In this document: positions 10,206 to 64,000 of the stretch, in pieces
How positions within the stretch are numbered: the first letter of the stretch is position 1
How the letters are laid out: each line of letters opens with the position of its first letter
Assembly (NCBI GenBank): GCA_037200905.1
Contig: JBBCGN010000005.1
Coordinates: 29,535 to 93,534, forward strand
Direction of reading: 5' to 3'
Source of the DNA: a bacterium
GTDB lineage: Bacteria; Patescibacteriota; Minisyncoccia; Phycocordibacterales; UBA9973
DNA length: 64,000 bases
Program-made: the position numbers and the translations under genes
The notes under the pieces: model-generated
The model's database searches: none
Seen by the model: only the letters and a program-made list of their open reading frames with translations
Told to the model about the DNA's origin: nothing

Positions 10206-10785
10206 GAGATGATTATACCACTTCGCAAAATAAAAAGAGCAGTGCGCGCGGCGCAAGGCTCTTTTCAGGATTCAATAATAGTCGGTCGCAATGATGCGAA
10301 TGATCGTTGGGGGCTGCGGAAACGGCACGAAAGCGTTGCGGAAGTTTGTCGGCTTTTCAAGCATGGTCGGCGGTCGCGTCATTTCGAAGAAAAGACTTTT
10401 CCAGGAAACTTTTTTGCGTCTCCGTACTACGATGTAACACATGATTTGCTTTTTAGGATTATGAAAAAGAATGCTCCCCCGCAGTATACGACAGGAAGCG
10501 GGTTTTTGCAAAGCCTGCCGGGAAATAAAACAGGGCCGGATAGAAATCCGACCCTCGCTGATCTACTTGCTGTTATATGCTGATATCACTGAGAAAAGAA
10601 CTAAGGAAGGGTCGGATAGAAATCCAACCCTGTTTTTAAAGCCAATATCCTATGAAAAACCGTTTTCAATATAGCATAACCGTATGCGTTCGGCAATAGG
10701 TTTCCATAGGAAATCAAAAAGGGGCCGGAAAATATTCCGAGCCCCTGTACCCGCTGTCCCTATGAAGAATTGTATATAATCTCGT

Positions 10786-10866
10786 TTAGGCCGAATTGAA
10801 ATCCAGCCTATTCTTTGCAGCCCTATATGGATATTGATAGGTATCCATATAAGGATGCATCGGACC
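10786..10866 (-). ncRNA. candidate small RNA (promoter + two hairpins), function unknown
   Basis: It lies downstream of the 10873-10901 promoter. The minus-strand transcript would contain the hairpin 10821-10854 (12-bp stem, 1 mismatch) and repeat copy 10788-10809. No plausible ORF is present. Confidence 0.25.
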
Positions 10867-10872
10867 GCATAC

Positions 10873-10901
10873 ACTATAATCCAAATCACTCCGTATGTCA
10901 A
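10873..10901 (-). promoter_or_regulatory. sigma70-type promoter inside the hairpin-repeat region
   Basis: The minus strand reads TTGACA (10901-10896), a 17-nt spacer, then TATAGT (10878-10873). Confidence 0.4.
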
Positions 10902-11056
10902 GAGGCACAACAAGAAGAAACCCAGAAGAAATTCAGAGAAAAAAGAAAGGGCCTGGATTGAAATCCTGGCCCGTGCTAAATCCGTACCCTATGAAAGAAT
11001 TATTGCGTAGTTTTCTTTTAGCATCATAGCAGACCCGAGAGCGCTGTCAAGATGTG

Positions 11057-21746: not shown

Positions 21747-21989
21747 TTACCAGTTGTTGTCTTTGGTGGTATCGCTCGTATTCGTATTGCTGTTGTTGCT
21801 TCGGGCCTGGCCGCCCTTTCGTCCCGCTTCTCTCGCCTCTTCGGAATCGAATTCATGCGCGTTGCCGCTCTGGTGCGCAGCCTTGCCGCCCTTGCTCGCT
21901 ATTTCCCTCTGCTCGTTCTCGTCCATCGCGGCAAAGCCTCTCTTGCTGCGATTCGTGTTGTCATTGTTAATGTTGTTGTTATTGTCCAT
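21747..21989 (-). CDS. general stress protein with KGG repeats (YciG/Con-10-like)
   Basis: RGFAAMDENEQREIASKGGKAAHQSGNAHEFDSEEAREAGRKGG matches the KGG stress-protein repeat. The ATG at 21989 is preferred because the ORF-track start is a TTG. Confidence 0.82.
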   Translation of the reverse strand: MDNNNNINNDNTNRSKRGFAAMDENEQREIASKGGKAAHQSGNAHEFDSEEAREAGRKGGQARSNNSNTNTSDTTKDNNW

Positions 21990-22224
21990 ATGATTTTGCA
22001 ATCACGTCGCGCAAGTCCTATGGGCGCGACGCTACTCGATTAAATAATTAGTAAGTGTGCTGCGCGCAGCTGCCTGCTGCAATTATTGCTTATAATTATT
22101 CGACCTTCATATACGGAGCCGACACTATTCATATCCTCTTACAAAAAATATGTGGTGTAATTTGGAAGACATAATCCTGCGGAATGTAATTCGGAATTCC
22201 GGGTCTTTTTTATTGCGCAAAACA

Positions 22225-31269: not shown

Positions 31270-31821
31270 ATGAAACACATATTAAAAAATAAATTCATAC
31301 GAATACCTGTAGCTCTCTGCATGGGCCTCGCCGTCTTCTTCGCGGGCGTAGCCATACCTCTGCATGTGACGTTTGCGCAAGGTTCATGCACCAATCCTAT
31401 CGATACCAATGAAAGCGATTGCATCTCGAACGGCGCGCAATGGATACCCGCAGGCGGAGGCGGGTGCAGGAGGCGGAGGAGGTGGCGGCGTGACCGTCAC
31501 GCAGTCCCACCGGCAGCTGCAGCACCCTCAAGGCCAATCCCAAGCCTCCAGGACCTGATCTGCTACGTCGTGGACAGCCTCATCGCCGGCGTGGTGCCGC
31601 TCATCTTCGCCCTCGCCATCGTCATGTTCGTCTGGGGCGTGGTGCGCTACGTCATCGGCGCGGACGACGAGAAGGAGAGGGAGCGAGGCAAGCAGTTCAT
31701 GATCTGGGGCATCATCGCCCTCGCGGTCATGGTGAGCGTCTGGGGCCTGGTGCATCTCGTCACCAATACCTTCGGATTGTCTACCGGCGGCCAGACCTAT
31801 ATTCCACAGGTCAGGCAGTAA
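31270..31821 (+). CDS. VirB2/TrbC-like 'pilin' paralogue 3 (GGN low-complexity insert)
   Basis: Signal peptide ...HVTFAQ|G with Cys residues. The two-TM core reads FALAIVMFVWGVVRYVIGADDEKERERGKQFMIWGIIALAVMVSVWGLVHLVTNTFGL. Confidence 0.7.
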   Translation: MKHILKNKFIRIPVALCMGLAVFFAGVAIPLHVTFAQGSCTNPIDTNESDCISNGAQWIPAGGGGCRRRRRWRRDRHAVPPAAAAPSRPIPSLQDLICYVVDSLIAGVVPLIFALAIVMFVWGVVRYVIGADDEKERERGKQFMIWGIIALAVMVSVWGLVHLVTNTFGLSTGGQTYIPQVRQ

Positions 31822-31940
31822 ACGGCTCTTGCATTCGTTCCGGCTGTGGTATAATTGTCGGGAGAAGTATTATTAATATTATAGGTCGTATCGTCATTAT
31901 CAGTTTATTAGTTGTCCCGCCTCCGGCGGGACGGGAATTT

Positions 31941-32360
31941 ATGAAAAACACATTAGTTAAGTTGTCTGGTTTCGCAGCTGGTTTGGGAACCGCGGTCGCT
32001 ATTCCGTTGTTGGCGTTCGCTCAGGGCGTAGGCACTCAGTCGGGCAGCATCGCGCCGACTAAGTGCAATAGCGGTACTATTACCGACATTCAGAGCTTCG
32101 TTTGTAAGCTTAACGAGATCTTGAGCGCGCTGTTGCCGTTCTTGGTTACCCTCGGCATCATCTACTTCGTCTGGGGCGTCGTTTCCTATGTCATCGCTGA
32201 CGACGAAGAGGCGAAGAAGAAGGGCCGCGATCGCATGATCTACGGCATCATCGGCTTGGTTGTCATCGTCGGTGTCTGGGGCCTGGTATCATGGGTTACC
32301 ACTACCTTCGGCTTGAACAACAACACCACGCAGATCATATATCCGACCGTACCGTATTAA
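31941..32360 (+). CDS. VirB2/TrbC-like 'pilin' paralogue 4
   Basis: Signal peptide ...LLAFAQ|G and a Cys pair. The core reads TLGIIYFVWGVVSYVIADDEEAKKKGRDRMIYGIIGLVVIVGVWGLVSWVTTTFGL. Confidence 0.72.
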   Translation: MKNTLVKLSGFAAGLGTAVAIPLLAFAQGVGTQSGSIAPTKCNSGTITDIQSFVCKLNEILSALLPFLVTLGIIYFVWGVVSYVIADDEEAKKKGRDRMIYGIIGLVVIVGVWGLVSWVTTTFGLNNNTTQIIYPTVPY

Positions 32361-32378
32361 TTCCTAAGACTGTACGCA

Positions 32379-32723
32379 ATGGATCTCTTATTCCCGAACG
32401 TAGCGCATGCTGAGACTGTGGACCAGTTCATAGCCAACGTCGATAGGCTCATCATCAATCCGCTTATCGTGCTCTTGTTCGCCTTGGCTGTCATCTACTT
32501 CCTCTGGGGCATGTTCATGTTCTTGGCCAACGCCGACAACGAAGAGAAGCGTTCTGTGGGCAAACTGCACATGATCTACGGGGTTATCGGCATGACGATC
32601 ATGGTAGGAGTGTTCGCAATCATGCACGTGGTTCTCGATACCCTCAGCATCGACGGCATCAATCCCGAACAAGGTTCCGTGCAATTGGATGATTACAACC
32701 CGTCCTATCCGCCCGCTCCATAG
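32379..32723 (+). CDS. VirB2/TrbC-like 'pilin' paralogue 5 (short pre-sequence)
   Basis: MDLLFPNVAHAE|T..., with the core LFALAVIYFLWGMFMFLANADNEEKRSVGKLHMIYGVIGMTIMVGVFAIMHVVLDTL. Confidence 0.65.
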   Translation: MDLLFPNVAHAETVDQFIANVDRLIINPLIVLLFALAVIYFLWGMFMFLANADNEEKRSVGKLHMIYGVIGMTIMVGVFAIMHVVLDTLSIDGINPEQGSVQLDDYNPSYPPAP

Positions 32724-41705: not shown

Positions 41706-42959
41706 ATGGCTAAATCAAATGCCTCCGCGCCGAAAAATCCTAGAAAAATCTATCTCGATCATGCTTCGGCGACGCCAGTAGACCCTGGCGCGGCGCGCAT
41801 CATGCACCGGGTGTCGGAGGCTTTTTTCGCGAATCCGAGCGCCATCCATGAGGACGGCGTAGCGGTAAAAAATGCTCTGGCCGCGGTCCGTGCCGCCGTA
41901 GCCGAACCGCTCGGAGCGCACAGCGATGAAATTATTTTCACCAGCGGCGCCACGGAGAGCAATAATCTGGCAATAACTGGAATTGTAAATGCTTCACAAG
42001 ATGAAAATTTTTTCAGGGGCTCGGCCAGACCGTTCAAAAATTCTCATTTTGTTCCGCATATCATCACGACAAACATCGAACATGCGTCCGTGCTCGAAGC
42101 CTGCAAATATTTGGAAAAGACAAAACAAGCCCAGGTGACGTATGTACCGGTTGAGCCGAACGGCATCGTCGATGCGAAGAAAATAAAAAAAGCTCTGAAG
42201 AAGAATACCGTGCTCGTTTCGGTGATGTACGCCAATAACGAGATCGGCACTATCCAGCCGCTTCGTGAGATTGCCAAGGAGATTCGCCATTTCCGCAAAG
42301 ATAGCAAGAATTCCGCTTTGCCGTATTTCCATACCGATGCTACCCAAGCGACGAATTATTTATCCATGAATGCAGAAAAGCTCGGCGTCGATCTCTTGTC
42401 TTTCAATGCCGCAAAGATCTACGGCCCGAAAGGCATAGGGGCGCTTTGGAAAAAAAGAAGCATTTCGCTCGCCCCGATCATGCATGGCGGCGATCAGGAA
42501 TACGGATTGCGCTCCGGTACCGAGAATATCGTTGCTGTTTCCGGTTTTGCCGAAGCTCTGGCTGTAGCGGAAGATATGAAAGTCAAAGAAGTAAAACGGC
42601 TCACGGTACTGCGGGATTATTTCATAAAAAAATTGCAGGCTCTCGATAAAAGAATCATTTTGAATGGCGATGCGGAAAGCCGCTTGCCGAACAATGTGAA
42701 TATCACTAGTGCGAATATGCCGAGCGATCTGTTGATCATCGAGCTTTCGGCTCGCGGCATCATGGCGAGCGCGAAGAGCGCCTGCAAATCCGGCGACGGC
42801 AAAGCATCGCATGTCATAGCTGCCATCCGTCCCGATGCCAGAGAGCTCGACGGCTCATTGCGCTTTACTCTCGGCAGAGGAACGACAAAGGCCGATATCG
42901 ACCACACTGCCAAGGCTCTCGAGCAGATTTTGAACAAACTGAAGAAGTGGTATAATTAG
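41706..42959 (+). CDS. cysteine desulfurase (NifS/IscS class V aminotransferase)
   Basis: An in-frame ATG at 41706 within ORF 41112..42959. Motifs present: IYLDHASATP, FTSGATESNN, HIITTNIEHASV, and SFNAAKIYGPKG (PLP lysine region). 417 aa. Confidence 0.9.
   Translation: MAKSNASAPKNPRKIYLDHASATPVDPGAARIMHRVSEAFFANPSAIHEDGVAVKNALAAVRAAVAEPLGAHSDEIIFTSGATESNNLAITGIVNASQDENFFRGSARPFKNSHFVPHIITTNIEHASVLEACKYLEKTKQAQVTYVPVEPNGIVDAKKIKKALKKNTVLVSVMYANNEIGTIQPLREIAKEIRHFRKDSKNSALPYFHTDATQATNYLSMNAEKLGVDLLSFNAAKIYGPKGIGALWKKRSISLAPIMHGGDQEYGLRSGTENIVAVSGFAEALAVAEDMKVKEVKRLTVLRDYFIKKLQALDKRIILNGDAESRLPNNVNITSANMPSDLLIIELSARGIMASAKSACKSGDGKASHVIAAIRPDARELDGSLRFTLGRGTTKADIDHTAKALEQILNKLKKWYN
42001..42047 (+). 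repeat. short palindromic element inside the cysteine desulfurase ORF (related to 56545..56647)
   Basis: ATGAAAATTTTT (42001-42012) pairs with AAAAATTCTCAT (42036-42047) at 11 of 12 positions. They flank TCAGGGGCTCGGCCAGACCGTTC. The 25-nt stretch 42016-42040 is identical to 56603-56627. Confidence 0.75.
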
Positions 42960-48574: not shown

Positions 48575-48725
48575 GTAAAAAAGCCGTATAAAATAAAGGC
48601 TTTTCAGGACTCGACCCTTACAGGGTCTGTACACCTTTCGCATCGTACTCGCCAAGGCTCCGTGCGATAGGCTCAAGGTCTTCTCGTCCTCTCACGCAAA
48701 GCTTCCGCTTTGCTCACGGCACATG

Positions 48726-48748
48726 CAAAAAACGCCCTTGCGGGCGCC
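48726..48748 (-). terminator. terminator hairpin just downstream of tRNA-Leu(CAG)
   Basis: The minus strand reads GGCGCCC-GCAA-GGGCG followed by TTTTTTGC. Confidence 0.55.
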
Positions 48749-48760
48749 TTATAGTGCATG

Positions 48761-48844
48761 TGCCGTGGAGAGGACTCGAACCTCCAAGGGGTTGCCCCCA
48801 CTACTACCTGAAAGTAGCGCGTCTACCAATTTCGCCACCACGGC
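48761..48844 (-). tRNA. tRNA-Leu (anticodon CAG)
   Basis: The minus strand reads GCCGTGG-TG-GCGAAATTGGTAGACGCG-CTACT-TTCAGGT-AGTAG-long variable arm-GGAGG-TTCGAGT-CCTCT-CCACGGC-A. Confidence 0.9.
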
Positions 48845-56164: not shown

Positions 56165-57298
56165 ATGATGAAGAAAATGACCGTATTCGTCGGCATGTCC
56201 GGCGGCGTGGATTCGTCCGTGTCCGCGGCATTGCTCAAAGAGGCCGGCTACGACGTAGTCGGCGTATTCATCAGGACTTGGCATCCTGATTTTTTGGCAT
56301 GCAACGAAGAAGAAGATCGCCGTGATGCCATGCGCGTAGCGGCGCATCTGGATATTCCATTTCTTACCTTTGATTTTGAAGATGTATATAAGAGGGAAGT
56401 GGCTGACTACATGATCTCTGAATATAAGAAAGGCCGTACGCCGAATCCTGACGTGATGTGCAACAAGGAGGTGAAGTTCGGCGCCTTCCTCAAGAAAGCC
56501 CTATCGATGGGCGCTGATTTCGTGGCGACGGGGCATTATGCGGTGAGAAAAAATTCTTCAGTGTTTTTTTCAGGTCCTCGGTTCTCCTCGCCCCAAATCC
56601 GAGGGGCTCGGCCAGACCGTTCAAAAAACACTGAAGAATTTTTTCTCGGCAAGGGTGCTGACCCCGCCAAAGACCAGAGCTATTTCCTTTGGACGCTGAC
56701 GCAGGCCCAACTTTCAAAGATACTTTTTCCTGGGGGTCATCTGCAGAAAAGCGAAGTCAGGAAACTGGCGGCGAAGTTTAAATTGCCAGTAGCGGAGAAA
56801 AAAGACAGCCAGGGCATCTGCTTCCTGGGCGAAGTGGATCTGAAAGAATTCCTGAAGCACTACATCAAGGAAAAGAAAGGCGATGTCGTCAATGAGAGCG
56901 GAGAAGTCATCGGCCACCACGACGGCGCGGTGTTCCATACCTTGGGCGAGCGGCATGGTTTTACCATTACCGAAAAGACTCCGCATGACAGTGCCTATTA
57001 TATCGTCGGCAAGGACATGAAGAAAAATACTTTGACGGTATCGCAGAATAGGAATACTGAAACCGCCGCGCAGCGTTCTATATACAAGATTTCAGATACG
57101 AATTTCTCGACAGTGCCTACTGATAAAAAATATACCGCACAAATCCGCTATCATGGAGAATTCTTACTGTGCGCTATCAAGACAAGCACCAAAGGCAAAG
57201 CCGAAGTCTCATTTGATCATCCCGTACTCGTGGCGGCAGGGCAGTCTATCGTGCTCTATGACGGCGAAATTTGTCTCGGCGGCGGCATAGTGGCATAA
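56165..57298 (+). CDS. mnmA: tRNA 2-thiouridine(34) synthase MnmA (carries an in-frame palindromic insertion)
   Basis: VFVGMSGGVDSSVSAALL is the PP-loop. NPDVMCNKEVKF, ATGHY, KDQSYFLW and DSQGICFLGE are also present. 377 aa. Confidence 0.93.
   Translation: MMKKMTVFVGMSGGVDSSVSAALLKEAGYDVVGVFIRTWHPDFLACNEEEDRRDAMRVAAHLDIPFLTFDFEDVYKREVADYMISEYKKGRTPNPDVMCNKEVKFGAFLKKALSMGADFVATGHYAVRKNSSVFFSGPRFSSPQIRGARPDRSKNTEEFFLGKGADPAKDQSYFLWTLTQAQLSKILFPGGHLQKSEVRKLAAKFKLPVAEKKDSQGICFLGEVDLKEFLKHYIKEKKGDVVNESGEVIGHHDGAVFHTLGERHGFTITEKTPHDSAYYIVGKDMKKNTLTVSQNRNTETAAQRSIYKISDTNFSTVPTDKKYTAQIRYHGEFLLCAIKTSTKGKAEVSFDHPVLVAAGQSIVLYDGEICLGGGIVA
56545..56647 (+). repeat. 103-nt palindromic element inside mnmA (25-bp perfect inverted repeats + 53-nt core)
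   Basis: GAGAAAAAATTCTTCAGTGTTTTTT (56545-56569) is the exact reverse complement of 56623-56647. The core contains the hairpin CCTCGG...CCGAGG and the 25-mer shared with 42016-42040. Confidence 0.85.
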
Positions 57299-63561: not shown

Positions 63562-63609
63562 TCAAGCGTCGCGCCGAAAGGACTTACGCGACGTGATTTG
63601 CAAAATCAT

Positions 63610-64000
63610 ATGACAAAGACAAACGACACAACAGAAGAGAAAGAGAAGGAAGTTTCCATCGAAACTCCGGCCGAAGGAGCAGAAGTAAAAGCTGCGCCTG
63701 GAGCAAAGGGGGGCAAGAAGAAAGTAGTTTCCGGCATCGTCTTCGTAGATGCGACATTCAACAACACCAAAGTGCTTTTCGCAGACAAGGGCGGCAACAC
63801 GCTTTTCTGGTCTACCGCAGGATCTCTCGGATTCAAGGGCGCCAAGAAGGGTACGCCGTTCGCAGCCTCGAAAGTCGGCGACCTGATCGGCTCGAAGGCC
63901 ATGCAGCTCGGCGTGAAGGATTCCGACGTCGTAGTGCGCGGCGTAGGCAGCGGCCGCGAGCCGGCGATCAGAGCATTCATGGCCAACGGCATCGAGATCA
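63610..64000 (+). CDS. rpsK: 30S ribosomal protein S11 (3' end outside window)
   Basis: ATG at 63610. ...GIVFVDATFNNTKVLFADKGGNTLFWSTAGSLGFKGAKKGTPFAA...VRGVGSGREPAIRAF... is canonical S11. The frame is open to the window edge. Confidence 0.92.
   Translation, partial: MTKTNDTTEEKEKEVSIETPAEGAEVKAAPGAKGGKKKVVSGIVFVDATFNNTKVLFADKGGNTLFWSTAGSLGFKGAKKGTPFAASKVGDLIGSKAMQLGVKDSDVVVRGVGSGREPAIRAFMANGIEI

What the first reader, a model, noticed from the sequence alone, without database searches (positions are those of the whole stretch)
56545..56647. 103-nt palindromic element with perfect 25-bp arms sits in frame inside mnmA (RPE-like)
56545-56569 (GAGAAAAAATTCTTCAGTGTTTTTT) is the exact reverse complement of 56623-56647. 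The 53 nt between them contain a second hairpin (CCTCGG...CCGAGG). The unit lies inside the mnmA ORF between the conserved ATGHY and KDQSYFLW blocks and has no stop codon. It is translated as ...KNSSVFFSGPRFSSPQIRGARPDRSKNTEEFF... From my memory of E. coli and B. subtilis MnmA, this loop is roughly 25 residues longer than usual. Its 3' core GGGGCTCGGCCAGACCGTTCAAAAA (56603-56627) recurs identically in an unrelated gene (42016-42040) in a different reading frame (GARPDRSKN here, RGSARPFKN there). Conservation is therefore at the nucleotide level, not the protein level. This is the signature of a small palindromic or mobile repeat tolerated in frame in housekeeping proteins, as established for Rickettsia palindromic elements. 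I am not aware of this being described for CPR-type genomes.
Basis: partly seen in the sequence, partly recalled or inferred. Interest (0 to 1): 0.78.

Follow-up and report, generated by a model that had tools for sequence, protein, structure and literature searches.

The report
Translated hairpin repeat inside CPR genes
A short hairpin-forming DNA repeat has been copied into the coding sequence of many essential genes in one group of ultra-small (CPR/Paceibacteria) bacteria; it appears to be read through as an extra floppy protein loop and looks like an undescribed, oddly built counterpart of the Rickettsia palindromic elements.

Summary

**What the repeat is.** The 103-nt palindrome in mnmA and the 25-mer in the cysteine desulfurase gene are two copies of a dispersed repeat. 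Its conserved unit is T5-7 / CAGGTCCTCGG / variable inner hairpin / GCCAGACCRTTC / A4-7 (38-65 nt).

**Distribution.**
- An exact-pattern scan of 185,579 species genomes gave about 64 hits in Paceibacterota/Nomurabacteria MAGs, plus about 16 chance-level hits in other phyla.
- Density is about one copy per 40 kb.
- About three quarters of copies lie inside housekeeping genes (PheT, LeuRS, UvrA, RecJ, IscS, MnmA, TsaD, KsgA and others).
- Copies occur in both orientations and in all five stop-free frames. No copy splits a gene.

**Unusual features.**
- Every copy sits inside its own 10-25-nt inverted repeat made of local sequence. There are no shared terminal repeats and no direct target duplication.
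- In relatives, the same MnmA loop hosts roughly a dozen unrelated hairpin families.

**Best reading.** This is selfish palindromic DNA tolerated in surface loops. Replication template switching probably builds and maintains the stems; that step is inferred, not shown.

It is RPE-like in behaviour but is not a member of the RPE family. I found no prior description for CPR bacteria.

The parts
56165..57298 (+). Host gene mnmA (tRNA 2-thiouridine(34) synthase), 377 aa. The element encodes residues 127-161.
   Evidence: ORF. Homologues and Pfam domains PF03054/PF20259/PF20258. Solved MnmA structures match at E = 1e-78 to 4e-84.
56545..56563 (+). Left outer arm GAGAAAAAATTCTTCAGTG. It is copy-specific and not part of the repeat family.
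   Evidence: It is the exact reverse complement of 56629-56647. Outer arms differ between copies but stay complementary within each copy.
56564..56570 (+). T-run (7 T). This is the family-conserved 5' boundary and pairs with the A-run.
   Evidence: The T:A pairs are invariant in 43 of 43 aligned copies.
56571..56581 (+). Conserved 5' block CAGGTCCTCGG.
   Evidence: It is nearly invariant in the CPR copies, including positions my search pattern did not require. L053 shares 24 of 24 nt here in reverse orientation.
56582..56609 (+). Variable inner region (subtype CTCGC...GCTCGG). It carries the inner hairpin, whose 3' arm CCGAGG is at 56599-56604; the 5' arm CCTCGG (56576-56581) lies in the conserved 5' block.
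   Evidence: Inner-region subtypes recur across genomes. The iscS copy lacks 30 nt of this region.
56610..56622 (+). Conserved 3' block GGCCAGACCGTTC.
   Evidence: The GGTC/GACC and GG/CC pairs are invariant in 42-43 of 43 copies.
56623..56628 (+). A-run (6 A). This is the family-conserved 3' boundary.
56629..56647 (+). Right outer arm CACTGAAGAATTTTTTCTC (copy-specific).
41706..42959 (+). Second host gene: class-V aminotransferase / IscS-NifS-type cysteine desulfurase, 417 aa from MAKSNAS. The insert covers residues about 100-114.
   Evidence: ORF. PF00266 at E = 5.5e-57. Coordinates.
41997..42051 (+). Second, short copy of the element. It consists of arm CAAGATGAAAA, T6, CAGG, GGCTCGG, CCAGACCGTTC, A5 and arm TTCTCATTTTG.
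   Evidence: Exact 25-mer match. Covariance-model hit 41987-42063 at 38.8 bits, E = 4e-7. Fold of -19.8 kcal/mol, z = -2.9. Coordinates.

Best explanation
**What it is (shown).**
- The palindrome is one copy of a dispersed, non-autonomous, hairpin-forming repeat family of Paceibacteria (Nomurabacteria-like CPR bacteria).
- The conserved unit is T5-7 / CAGGTCCTCGG / variable inner hairpin / (G)GCCAGACCRTTC / A4-7.
- It occurs about once per 40 kb.
- About three quarters of copies lie inside unrelated housekeeping genes, at variable loop positions.
- Copies occur in either orientation and in any of the five reading frames that have no stop codon.
- In MnmA the insert sits at the tip of a beta-hairpin and is predicted to be disordered.
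- Each copy is wrapped in its own 10-25-nt inverted repeat made of local sequence.

**How it works (inferred).**
- It is selfish DNA with no role in MnmA chemistry. It persists because only insertions that keep the frame, avoid stops and fall in tolerant loops survive.
- Inserts tend to lie where A-rich Lys/Asn codons are followed by T-rich Phe/Leu codons. That arrangement is a natural AnTn quasi-palindrome.
- The T-run/A-run ends, together with that quasi-palindrome, let the region snap back into a hairpin during replication. Template switching within the hairpin then copies one flank onto the other. This would extend and perfect the stem, giving 25 of 25 here.
- The same process could flip the core between its arms, and could replace one core with another copy's core.

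**Sub-claim confidences.**
- Dispersed selfish repeat that is translated: about 0.8.
- Template switching as the origin and maintenance of the stems: about 0.5.
- Template switching, rather than a transposase, as the means of spread: about 0.3.
For: **Dispersal and clade restriction.**
- 83 pattern hits were found. About 64 are in Paceibacterota/Nomurabacteria MAGs. About 16 are in unrelated phyla, which matches my own estimate of about 17 chance hits.
- Twelve further copies lie within the same 8-kb loci.
- Only 3 hits were found in 900 kb of more distant CPR mnmA loci.
- The window holds 2 copies.

**Nucleotide-level identity.**
- The six-frame translations of this copy reproduce the peptide motifs seen in orthologues.
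- L053 has 24/24 and 20/20 identical nt in reverse orientation, although its MnmA is about 63% identical.

**Hosts.** Pfam identifies PheT, RecJ, the cysteine desulfurase (three different sites), UvrA, LeuRS, Ile/ValRS, TsaD, GatA, CCA-adding enzyme, KsgA, an FAD oxidase, MOFRL, SOD and MnmA.

**Read-through.**
- 48 copies are spanned by ORFs of at least 150 aa. Frame counts are 15, 14, 8, 7 and 3, with one unclassified.
- Orientation is 30 forward to 18 reverse, close to the 3:2 expected from the number of open frames.
- The 16 copies without a long spanning ORF include 14 in spacers and 2 cut short by a locus end or a 149-aa ORF. The five spacer copies examined in detail lie between complete neighbouring genes, so no gene is split.

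**Position in the protein.** Residues 131-157 have pLDDT below 50 and lie between strands 125-129 and 160-163. Solved structures lack the segment.

**Copy-specific stems.**
- Flank complementarity scores 12.0, against 5.3 for displaced controls and 4.5 for the chance hits.
- All four pair types occur at 11 outer-stem positions.
- Arms average 13.9 nt and are 88% Watson-Crick.
- Other insert families have the same build.

**DNA-level rather than mRNA-level stem.** On the sense strand there are 18 G.U pairs against 31 A.C pairs.

**AnTn context.**
- Empty sites read AAT AAA AAT TTT....
- The inner ends of left arms are 49% A and those of right arms 47% T.

**Presence/absence and turnover.**
- Empty and filled MnmA loops occur among relatives about 70% identical.
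- IscS is filled at site 1, 2 or 3 in different genomes.
- LeuRS, KsgA and MnmA carry opposite orientations at one site.

**Precedent.** Template switching as a maker of perfect coding palindromes is discussed in PMC6649704.
Against: **Mechanism not observed.** No transposition or template-switch event has been seen.

**Core conservation is high for decaying junk.**
- At orthologous sites the core is 91-96% identical, while the host flanks are about 41-75% (PheT, IscS site 2, RecJ).
- The invariant blocks are asymmetric.
- Together these suggest a trans-acting factor recognises the core, or that the core has a function.

**Concerted evolution is weak.** Within-genome similarity of the inner region is only modestly raised (0.66 against 0.53).

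**Length bookkeeping is ambiguous.**
- The mnmA copy fits core plus one 19-nt arm (84 nt).
- The iscS copy and P0007 fit core only.
- Two different reconstructions of the empty mnmA site both give 15 aa.

**Ascertainment bias.** The seed set was found with an exact pattern, which inflates the apparent conservation of the required positions.

**Translation is inferred, not measured.** It rests on frame and stop statistics, not on RNA or peptide data.
Confidence: 0.62

Rival explanations
1. It is a conventional MITE. In this reading the core is a deletion derivative or target of a transposase encoded elsewhere in these genomes (for example a single-strand HUH/RAYT-type or IS200/IS605-type enzyme that recognises imperfect hairpins). 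The arms are then secondary.
For: - The terminal blocks are invariant and asymmetric, with imperfect terminal symmetry (TTTTT..GGTC at both ends).
- Most copies are intact rather than decayed.
- Sites differ between genomes.
Against: - There is no direct target-site duplication next to the runs (0.21 against 0.32 in shuffles) and only a marginal signal outside the arms.
- About 1.4 Mb of related DNA holds no solitary ends and no IS-sized pairs.
- No viral copies were found.
- Copy-specific inverted flanks are not a product of known cut-and-paste chemistry.
- The sample of DNA is small, so a parent element could easily have been missed.
Confidence: 0.2
2. It is a functional nucleic-acid element. 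In this reading the conserved core, held on a long stem, is a binding site or structural signal that the cell uses on DNA (cruciform or hairpin) or on RNA. It sits inside genes because CPR genomes have almost no intergenic space.
For: - The core is 91-96% identical at orthologous PheT, IscS and RecJ sites, although host flanks and arms have diverged.
- Compensatory arm changes occur at orthologous sites.
- Intergenic copies have the same build.
- IscS and MnmA, two steps of one pathway, are the most frequently occupied hosts.
Against: - Copies occur in both orientations relative to the host gene, at the ratio expected from open frames alone.
- There is no G.U excess on the sense strand.
- Orthologous sites can be empty, or can hold different subtypes or entirely different families.
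- No known RNA family matches.
- The density of about one per 40 kb fits no known genome-wide signal.
Confidence: 0.12
3. The insert is not translated. In this reading it is removed from the mRNA or bypassed by the ribosome, as with the byp elements of Magnusiomyces mitochondria or T4 gene 60.
For: - The hairpin is very stable (-54.8 kcal/mol).
- CPR bacteria are known for intervening sequences in rRNA genes (my own knowledge).
Against: - All 48 intragenic copies keep the host frame and carry no stop.
- Only the five open frames are used, and the frame with two TGA codons never occurs inside a gene.
- No gene is split by a copy.
- A removed or bypassed element would not be under these constraints.
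Confidence: 0.03
4. It is a lineage-specific functional protein loop of MnmA, conserved at the amino-acid level.
For: Some orthologues share the peptide KNSSVFFSGPR..SKNTEEFF (P0012).
Against: - The same DNA is read in other frames and on the other strand in other orthologues, giving unrelated peptides.
- The loop is predicted to be disordered.
- The same DNA occurs in unrelated proteins.
Confidence: 0.01
5. It is an assembly or amplification artefact (a palindromic chimera).
For: Perfect palindromes can arise from MDA or from assembly errors (my own knowledge).
Against: - The identical protein is on three contigs from NCBI and Logan assemblies.
- The same core sits at the same site in dozens of MAGs from unrelated studies.
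- The reading frame is preserved.
Confidence: 0.01

Closest known systems
Rickettsia palindromic elements (RPE; Ogata et al. 2000, as summarised in PMC10969869)
   Same: - Both are small palindromic, hairpin-forming repeats.
- Both are dispersed in a reduced genome.
- Many copies are inserted in frame into unrelated housekeeping genes, at positions compatible with the protein fold.
- No transposase is known for either.
   Different: - RPEs are about 100-150 bp. This core is 38-65 nt.
- Each RPE family encodes one conserved peptide. This element is read in five frames and on both strands.
- RPEs lose identity over time. Here the cores stay 91-96% identical at some orthologous sites.
- The copy-specific inverted flanks were not mentioned for RPEs in the sources I read.
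- The phylum is different (Patescibacteria, not Alphaproteobacteria).
Coding palindromes in nematomorph mitochondrial genes (PMC6649704)
   Same: - Both have perfect or near-perfect inverted repeats inside translated genes.
- Both show gains and losses between species.
- The arms appear to be actively kept identical, and template switching has been proposed as the cause.
   Different: - The nematomorph repeats have no conserved dispersed core.
- Their arms encode conserved parts of the protein, and the repeats do not lengthen the gene.
- Here a conserved core is inserted and the arms lie in variable loops.
Bacterial MITEs (Correia/CREE, ERIC, RUP, BOX and others)
   Same: Both are short, non-autonomous, structured repeats, sometimes intragenic, that give in-frame fusions.
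   Different: - MITEs have family-wide terminal inverted repeats and direct target-site duplications, and usually a related IS. None of these was found here.
- Here the outer inverted repeat differs in every copy.
REP/BIME elements with RAYT transposases (PMC3733652)
   Same: Both are imperfect palindromes of tens of nucleotides with conserved asymmetric positions, which suggests recognition as a hairpin.
   Different: - REPs are extragenic, carry a GTAG or CGTC head, occur in hundreds of copies and co-occur with a RAYT gene.
- This element is mostly intragenic and has no such head.
- I could not test for an associated gene.
Mitochondrial GC-clusters, double-hairpin elements and byp elements of fungi
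   Same: Both are GC-rich hairpins that invade AT-rich coding sequence in compact genomes.
   Different: - Byp elements are bypassed in translation and may break the frame. Here the frame is always kept.
- The genetic system and the sequences are different.

Membership tests
Rickettsia palindromic elements (RPE) | Palindromic sequence predicted to form a stable hairpin | tested here: met
   The region folds at -54.8 kcal/mol with z = -7.1.
Rickettsia palindromic elements (RPE) | Dispersed copies inserted in frame in unrelated protein-coding genes | tested here: met
   48 copies are spanned by ORFs of at least 150 aa, in at least 14 different host families.
Rickettsia palindromic elements (RPE) | Size about 100-150 bp | tested here: not met
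   The conserved unit is 38-65 nt. With arms, whole copies are about 60-105 nt.
Rickettsia palindromic elements (RPE) | Each family encodes one conserved peptide (a single frame) | tested here: not met
   Five frames on two strands are used, with counts 15, 14, 8, 7 and 3. The RPE property is taken from the review read.
Rickettsia palindromic elements (RPE) | Sequence similarity to RPE consensus sequences; restricted to Rickettsia | not testable with these tools
   I had no RPE consensus sequence to compare. The taxon differs: all non-chance hits are in Patescibacteria MAGs.
MITE | Terminal inverted repeats shared by all copies | tested here: inconclusive
   Only the T-run/A-run and GGTC/GACC are shared and symmetric. 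The long outer inverted repeat is copy-specific.
MITE | Direct target-site duplication | tested here: not met
   The longest direct repeat next to the runs averages 0.21 nt, against 0.32 in shuffles. Outside the arms it is 0.79 against 0.53, with the largest shuffle at 0.79.
MITE | A related autonomous IS with the same ends | tested here: inconclusive
   About 1.4 Mb held no solitary or widely spaced end blocks. Whole genomes were not available.
REP/RAYT | Extragenic location, GTAG or CGTC head, associated RAYT gene | tested here: not met
   About 75% of copies are intragenic and the consensus has no GTAG or CGTC head. I did not test for a RAYT gene.
Translational bypass (byp) or spliced intervening sequence | The insert breaks the frame or carries stops, and is absent from the protein | tested here: not met
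   The frame and open reading are kept in all intragenic copies, and no gene is split. I could not test for absence from the protein.
Any Rfam RNA family | Match at the family's gathering score | tested here: not met
   Only weak generic-hairpin hits appeared, all far below their thresholds.

The most novel reading that the evidence does not exclude
These are a new class of selfish hairpin DNA that needs no transposase.

- A conserved core with T-run and A-run ends would be copied between sites by replication template switching.
- It would build its own stem out of the host's coding sequence.
- The core could be flipped and swapped in place, and kept intact by hairpin-templated conversion.
- This would explain why one MnmA loop has been colonised by about a dozen unrelated hairpin families.

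A variant of this reading: the invariant asymmetric core is the recognition site of an undiscovered CPR protein that acts on DNA hairpins.
Probability: 0.25. Interest if true: 0.85.

Novelty: new variant of a known kind. Interest (0 to 1): 0.7.

Why it matters
- **Selfish DNA in minimal genomes.** CPR/Patescibacteria genomes are among the smallest and most streamlined known, yet here selfish DNA lives inside essential genes (aminoacyl-tRNA synthetases, UvrA, RecJ, IscS, MnmA).
- **A second, independent case.** This is a second example of the phenomenon that made RPEs famous, with enough copies and families to study how proteins absorb random loops.
- **Annotation and modelling.** The elements explain part of the unexplained length variation and the low-confidence loops in CPR proteins. 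They will confound alignments, domain calls and structure models.
- **Markers.** They could serve as lineage markers.
- **A replication question.** The copy-specific stems and the orientation flips point to a strong template-switching or hairpin-conversion activity in these organisms. That is a testable statement about CPR replication and repair.

Tried and rejected
1. **Pathway-specific regulatory hairpin for s2U34.** Both window hosts belong to the IscS-to-MnmA sulfur relay, so I considered a pathway-specific signal. I rejected it as the main explanation because the element occurs in at least 14 unrelated host families, in spacers, and on both strands. The over-representation of IscS and MnmA remains unexplained.
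2. **Known RNA family, including SRP-like.** No match.
3. **Viral vehicle.** No hits in viral contigs.
4. **IS-sized parent or solitary ends.** None in about 1.4 Mb.
5. **Direct target-site duplication.** Not found.
6. **Stem selected in the mRNA.** There is no G.U excess on the sense strand.
7. **Strong concerted evolution within genomes.** Only weak (0.66 against 0.53). Discrete subtypes are shared across genomes instead.
8. **Length bookkeeping to decide whether an arm is an added inverted copy of the flank.**
   - The mnmA copy fits (84 = 65 + 19 nt).
   - The iscS copy and P0007 fit core only.
   - Two reconstructions of the empty site are equally good.
   - I left this unresolved.
9. **Split genes.** The spacer copies examined in detail lie between complete neighbouring genes.
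10. **Failed call.** One Pfam call failed because of a bad reference and was repeated.
Full report
**1. Observation**

The sequence is as described.
- 56545-56569 (GAGAAAAAATTCTTCAGTGTTTTTT) is the exact reverse complement of 56623-56647, with 53 nt between the arms. It is the longest perfect local inverted repeat in the window.
- The region folds at -54.8 kcal/mol, against -29.8 +/- 3.5 for dinucleotide shuffles (z = -7.1).
- CCTCGG (56576-56581) pairs with CCGAGG (56599-56604).
- The element is in frame and stop-free inside a 377-aa ORF (56165..57298), which is MnmA.
- The 25-mer GGGGCTCGGCCAGACCGTTCAAAAA occurs exactly twice (42016-42040 and 56603-56627), with zero expected by chance.
- The second copy lies in a class-V aminotransferase/cysteine desulfurase gene, in another reading frame.
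- That second copy sits in its own short hairpin and also shares TTTTTTCAGG on the 5' side. It lacks 30 nt of the inner region.

**2. The insert is nucleotide-defined and lineage-specific**

MnmA relatives (Paceibacterota/Nomurabacteria, 65-73% identical) are 350-428 aa long.
- Between the ATGHY and KDQSYFL motifs, a few relatives have 15 residues (for example AQNKKNSLVKGKDPS). Most have 34-67. This protein has 43.
- The peptide motifs in these loops are the six-frame translations of our 103 nt:
  - FFSGPR..PDRSKN (this frame)
  - FSQVLGSPRP (+1 frame)
  - FLNGLAEP..RTEDLKK and RGPEK (reverse strand)
- In locus L053 the element is present in reverse orientation with 24/24 and 20/20 identical nucleotides. 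Its MnmA is about 63% identical to ours.
- Solved MnmA structures have 11 residues where ours has 34.
- In an AlphaFold model, residues 131-157 have pLDDT below 50. They lie between strands 125-129 and 160-163, at the tip of a beta-hairpin.

**3. A dispersed family**

I scanned one genome for each of 185,579 species with TTTCAGGN{7,37}CCAGACCRTTCAAAA. This gave 83 stretches.
- About 16 are in unrelated phyla. By my own calculation, roughly 17 are expected by chance. These hits lack the other features of the family.
- About 64 are in Paceibacterota/Nomurabacteria-type MAGs. Some are labelled Saccharibacteria by their depositors.
- Several genomes have 2-5 hits on different contigs.

I built a covariance model from 43 copies.
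- It finds only the two copies in the window.
- It finds 12 additional copies within the 8-kb loci, which is about one per 40 kb.
- It finds only 3 in 900 kb of more distant CPR mnmA loci.
- No viral contig carries the element.

**4. Hosts, frames and orientation**

Forty-eight copies are spanned by ORFs of at least 150 aa.
- Pfam identifies the hosts as PheT, RecJ, the cysteine desulfurase (three different sites), UvrA, LeuRS, Ile/ValRS, TsaD, GatA, CCA-adding enzyme, KsgA, an FAD oxidase, a MOFRL protein, SOD and MnmA.
- A few of these copies (PGK, RF1, one RecJ) lie at the extreme 5' end and may be upstream of the true start codon.
- Five frames are used, with counts 15, 14, 8, 7 and 3 (one copy unclassified).
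- The sixth frame contains two TGA codons and is never found inside a gene.
- The orientation ratio is 30:18, close to the 3:2 expected from the number of open frames alone.
- Of the 16 copies without a long spanning ORF, 14 fall in spacers; L084 is truncated by the locus end inside PheT and L145 has a 149-aa spanning ORF. The five spacer copies examined in detail lie between complete, different genes: FtsI|MurF, MurE|MurD, Xth|methyltransferase, ComEC-like|GlyA and Dut|ArgRS.
- No gene is interrupted. This argues for translation through the element and against splicing or ribosomal bypass.

**5. Anatomy**

The alignment and RNAalifold show five parts, from the outside in:
- an outer stem of about 11 pairs in which every pair type occurs (15-24 of 43 copies differ on both sides at each position)
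- an invariant T:A stem
- an internal loop
- invariant GGTC/GACC and GG/CC pairs around a CTC bulge
- a variable apical hairpin

The inner region falls into discrete subtypes that recur across genomes:
- CYGGGTCCC..CCCCRG
- the short form AAAAAATCC
- CTCGC..GCTCGG, as in this window
- GTCGCC..GGCTCAA

The outer stem is specific to each copy.
- Flank complementarity scores 12.0 for 62 CPR copies, 5.3 for displaced controls and 4.5 for the chance hits.
- Arms average 13.9 nt beyond the runs and are 88% Watson-Crick.
- There is no direct target-site duplication.
- There are no solitary ends and no IS-sized parent in about 1.4 Mb.
- In this window, 19 nt of each 25-nt arm are copy-specific.

**6. 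Evolutionary behaviour**

- Sites are gained or lost between genomes. The window's desulfurase is filled at site 1 only, while L085 and L108 are filled at site 2 and L146 at site 3.
- At LeuRS, KsgA and MnmA, the same site carries the core in opposite orientations in different genomes.
- At the PheT, IscS-site-2 and RecJ sites, orthologous cores are 91-96% identical. The host flanks are about 41-75% identical and the arms 47-93%.
- At the PheT site the arms show compensatory changes: GGCAGGGTC/GACCCCGCC, GGCAGAGTC/GACTCTGCC and GGCAAAGTC/ACTTTGCC.
- At other orthologous sites, different subtypes are present.
- Within-genome similarity of the inner region is only slightly raised (0.66 against 0.53).
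- In relatives, the MnmA loop holds roughly a dozen different peptide-motif families.
- More distant CPR lineages carry unrelated inserts there that fold at -40 to -78 kcal/mol.
- Several of these families recur elsewhere on the same contigs, with the same build of conserved core plus copy-specific arms.

**7. Mechanism**

*Shown:* this is a dispersed repeat conserved at nucleotide level. It preserves the reading frame, sits at loop positions and has copy-specific stems.

*Inferred:*
- Empty MnmA sites read AAT AAA AAT TTT....
- The inner ends of left arms are A-rich and those of right arms T-rich.
- So inserts lie where Lys/Asn codons meet Phe/Leu codons, which is a natural AnTn quasi-palindrome.
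- Together with the element's T-run and A-run, this gives a snap-back structure.
- Intra-hairpin template switching during replication is a known route from quasi-palindromes to perfect inverted repeats (discussed in PMC6649704). It would extend and perfect the arms, and would produce compensatory changes without selection.
- The same process could invert the core and allow one core to replace another.

Evidence bearing on this inference:
- G.U pairs on the sense strand (18) do not exceed A.C pairs (31). This argues against selection for an mRNA stem.
- The mnmA copy is 84 nt longer than the 15-aa baseline, which equals core with runs (65 nt) plus one 19-nt arm.
- The iscS copy and P0007 fit core only. 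Two reconstructions of the empty site are equally good.
- So whether arms are added or overwritten is unresolved.
- The high conservation of the asymmetric core keeps two rivals open: a transposase or nuclease acting in trans, or a cellular function.

**8. Comparison and novelty**

The behaviour is that of Rickettsia palindromic elements. Membership fails on three counts:
- size
- the single conserved peptide frame reported for RPEs
- taxon

It is not a classical MITE, because it has no direct target duplication, no family-wide long terminal repeats and no detectable parent. It is not a REP, because it is mostly intragenic and has no GTAG or CGTC head. It matches no Rfam family.

The nearest parallel for the stems is the coding palindromes of nematomorph mitochondria, which lack a dispersed core.

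Six full-text searches found no description of such elements in CPR/Patescibacteria. That library does not cover subscription-only papers.

**9. Verdict**

- I rate it a new variant of a known kind: in-frame palindromic selfish repeats, here with a short conserved core and stems built from local sequence.
- Translation and mobility are inferred from sequence statistics. Reads, transcripts and peptides are the missing direct evidence.

Noticed in passing
window 10522-10972: A non-coding stretch of about 550 nt holds four copies of a different small GC hairpin (GGGCCGGATAGAAATCCGACCC-like, family D7). Their spacing is 76, 113 and 228 nt. No Rfam family matches.
   Followed up: partly
window 21971-22033 and 63565-63628: Two adjoining inverted-repeat segments (34 nt at 91% and 31 nt at 77%) lie 41.5 kb apart. 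Both are at gene boundaries. They may be a shared promoter, leader or terminator module.
   Followed up: partly
window 48681-48780: A very stable local fold (-56.9 kcal/mol; GC-corrected z = -5.5) abuts and overlaps tRNA-Leu(cag) at 48760-48844. It has 13-nt perfect arms at 48715-48727 and 48755-48767.
   Followed up: no
window 31590-32620: Three tandem paralogous segments (repeat families D1, D3, D8 and D9; about 71-76% identical; spacing about 536 and 336 nt). They look like a small family of short hydrophobic proteins.
   Followed up: no
L003 10908-10983; L046 10814-10915: MnmA has a second insertion hot spot, in the variable region after VSQN (about residue 295). L003 carries there the multi-hairpin family that L001 has in the first loop. 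L046 has a weak copy of the present family there.
   Followed up: partly
P0001-P0120 loops; L001-L080 loops: The single MnmA beta-hairpin tip carries roughly a dozen different insert families among relatives about 70% identical. Examples are LSHGSHSVLNM.., FALGDKRTGNP.., GRFRPKGGGKPKN, FELPEGPxPV.., KNSSLYPQAGSDTSSF and GVGGGNSK..GTPPPQGG. Most are predicted to form strong hairpins.
   Followed up: partly
L109 (UvrA), L153 (KsgA), L105 (PheT): Single proteins carry two inserts from different families or at different sites. UvrA and KsgA each have a GVGGGNSK/PLGGGGR-type insert in addition to the present element. PheT in L105 has two copies of the present family.
   Followed up: no
L092 5126-7999; L131 4830-8000: LeuRS carries an inserted NUDIX domain, and the Ile/Val-type tRNA synthetase carries an inserted histidine-phosphatase domain (Pfam). 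These are whole-domain insertions in CPR aminoacyl-tRNA synthetases and are unrelated to the hairpin element.
   Followed up: no
loci L081-L160: The cysteine desulfurase (three sites) and MnmA together account for about a third of the intragenic copies found. They are consecutive steps of the tRNA s2U34 sulfur relay. This may reflect tolerant loops and shared ancestry of sites, but I did not test it against a genome-wide background.
   Followed up: no
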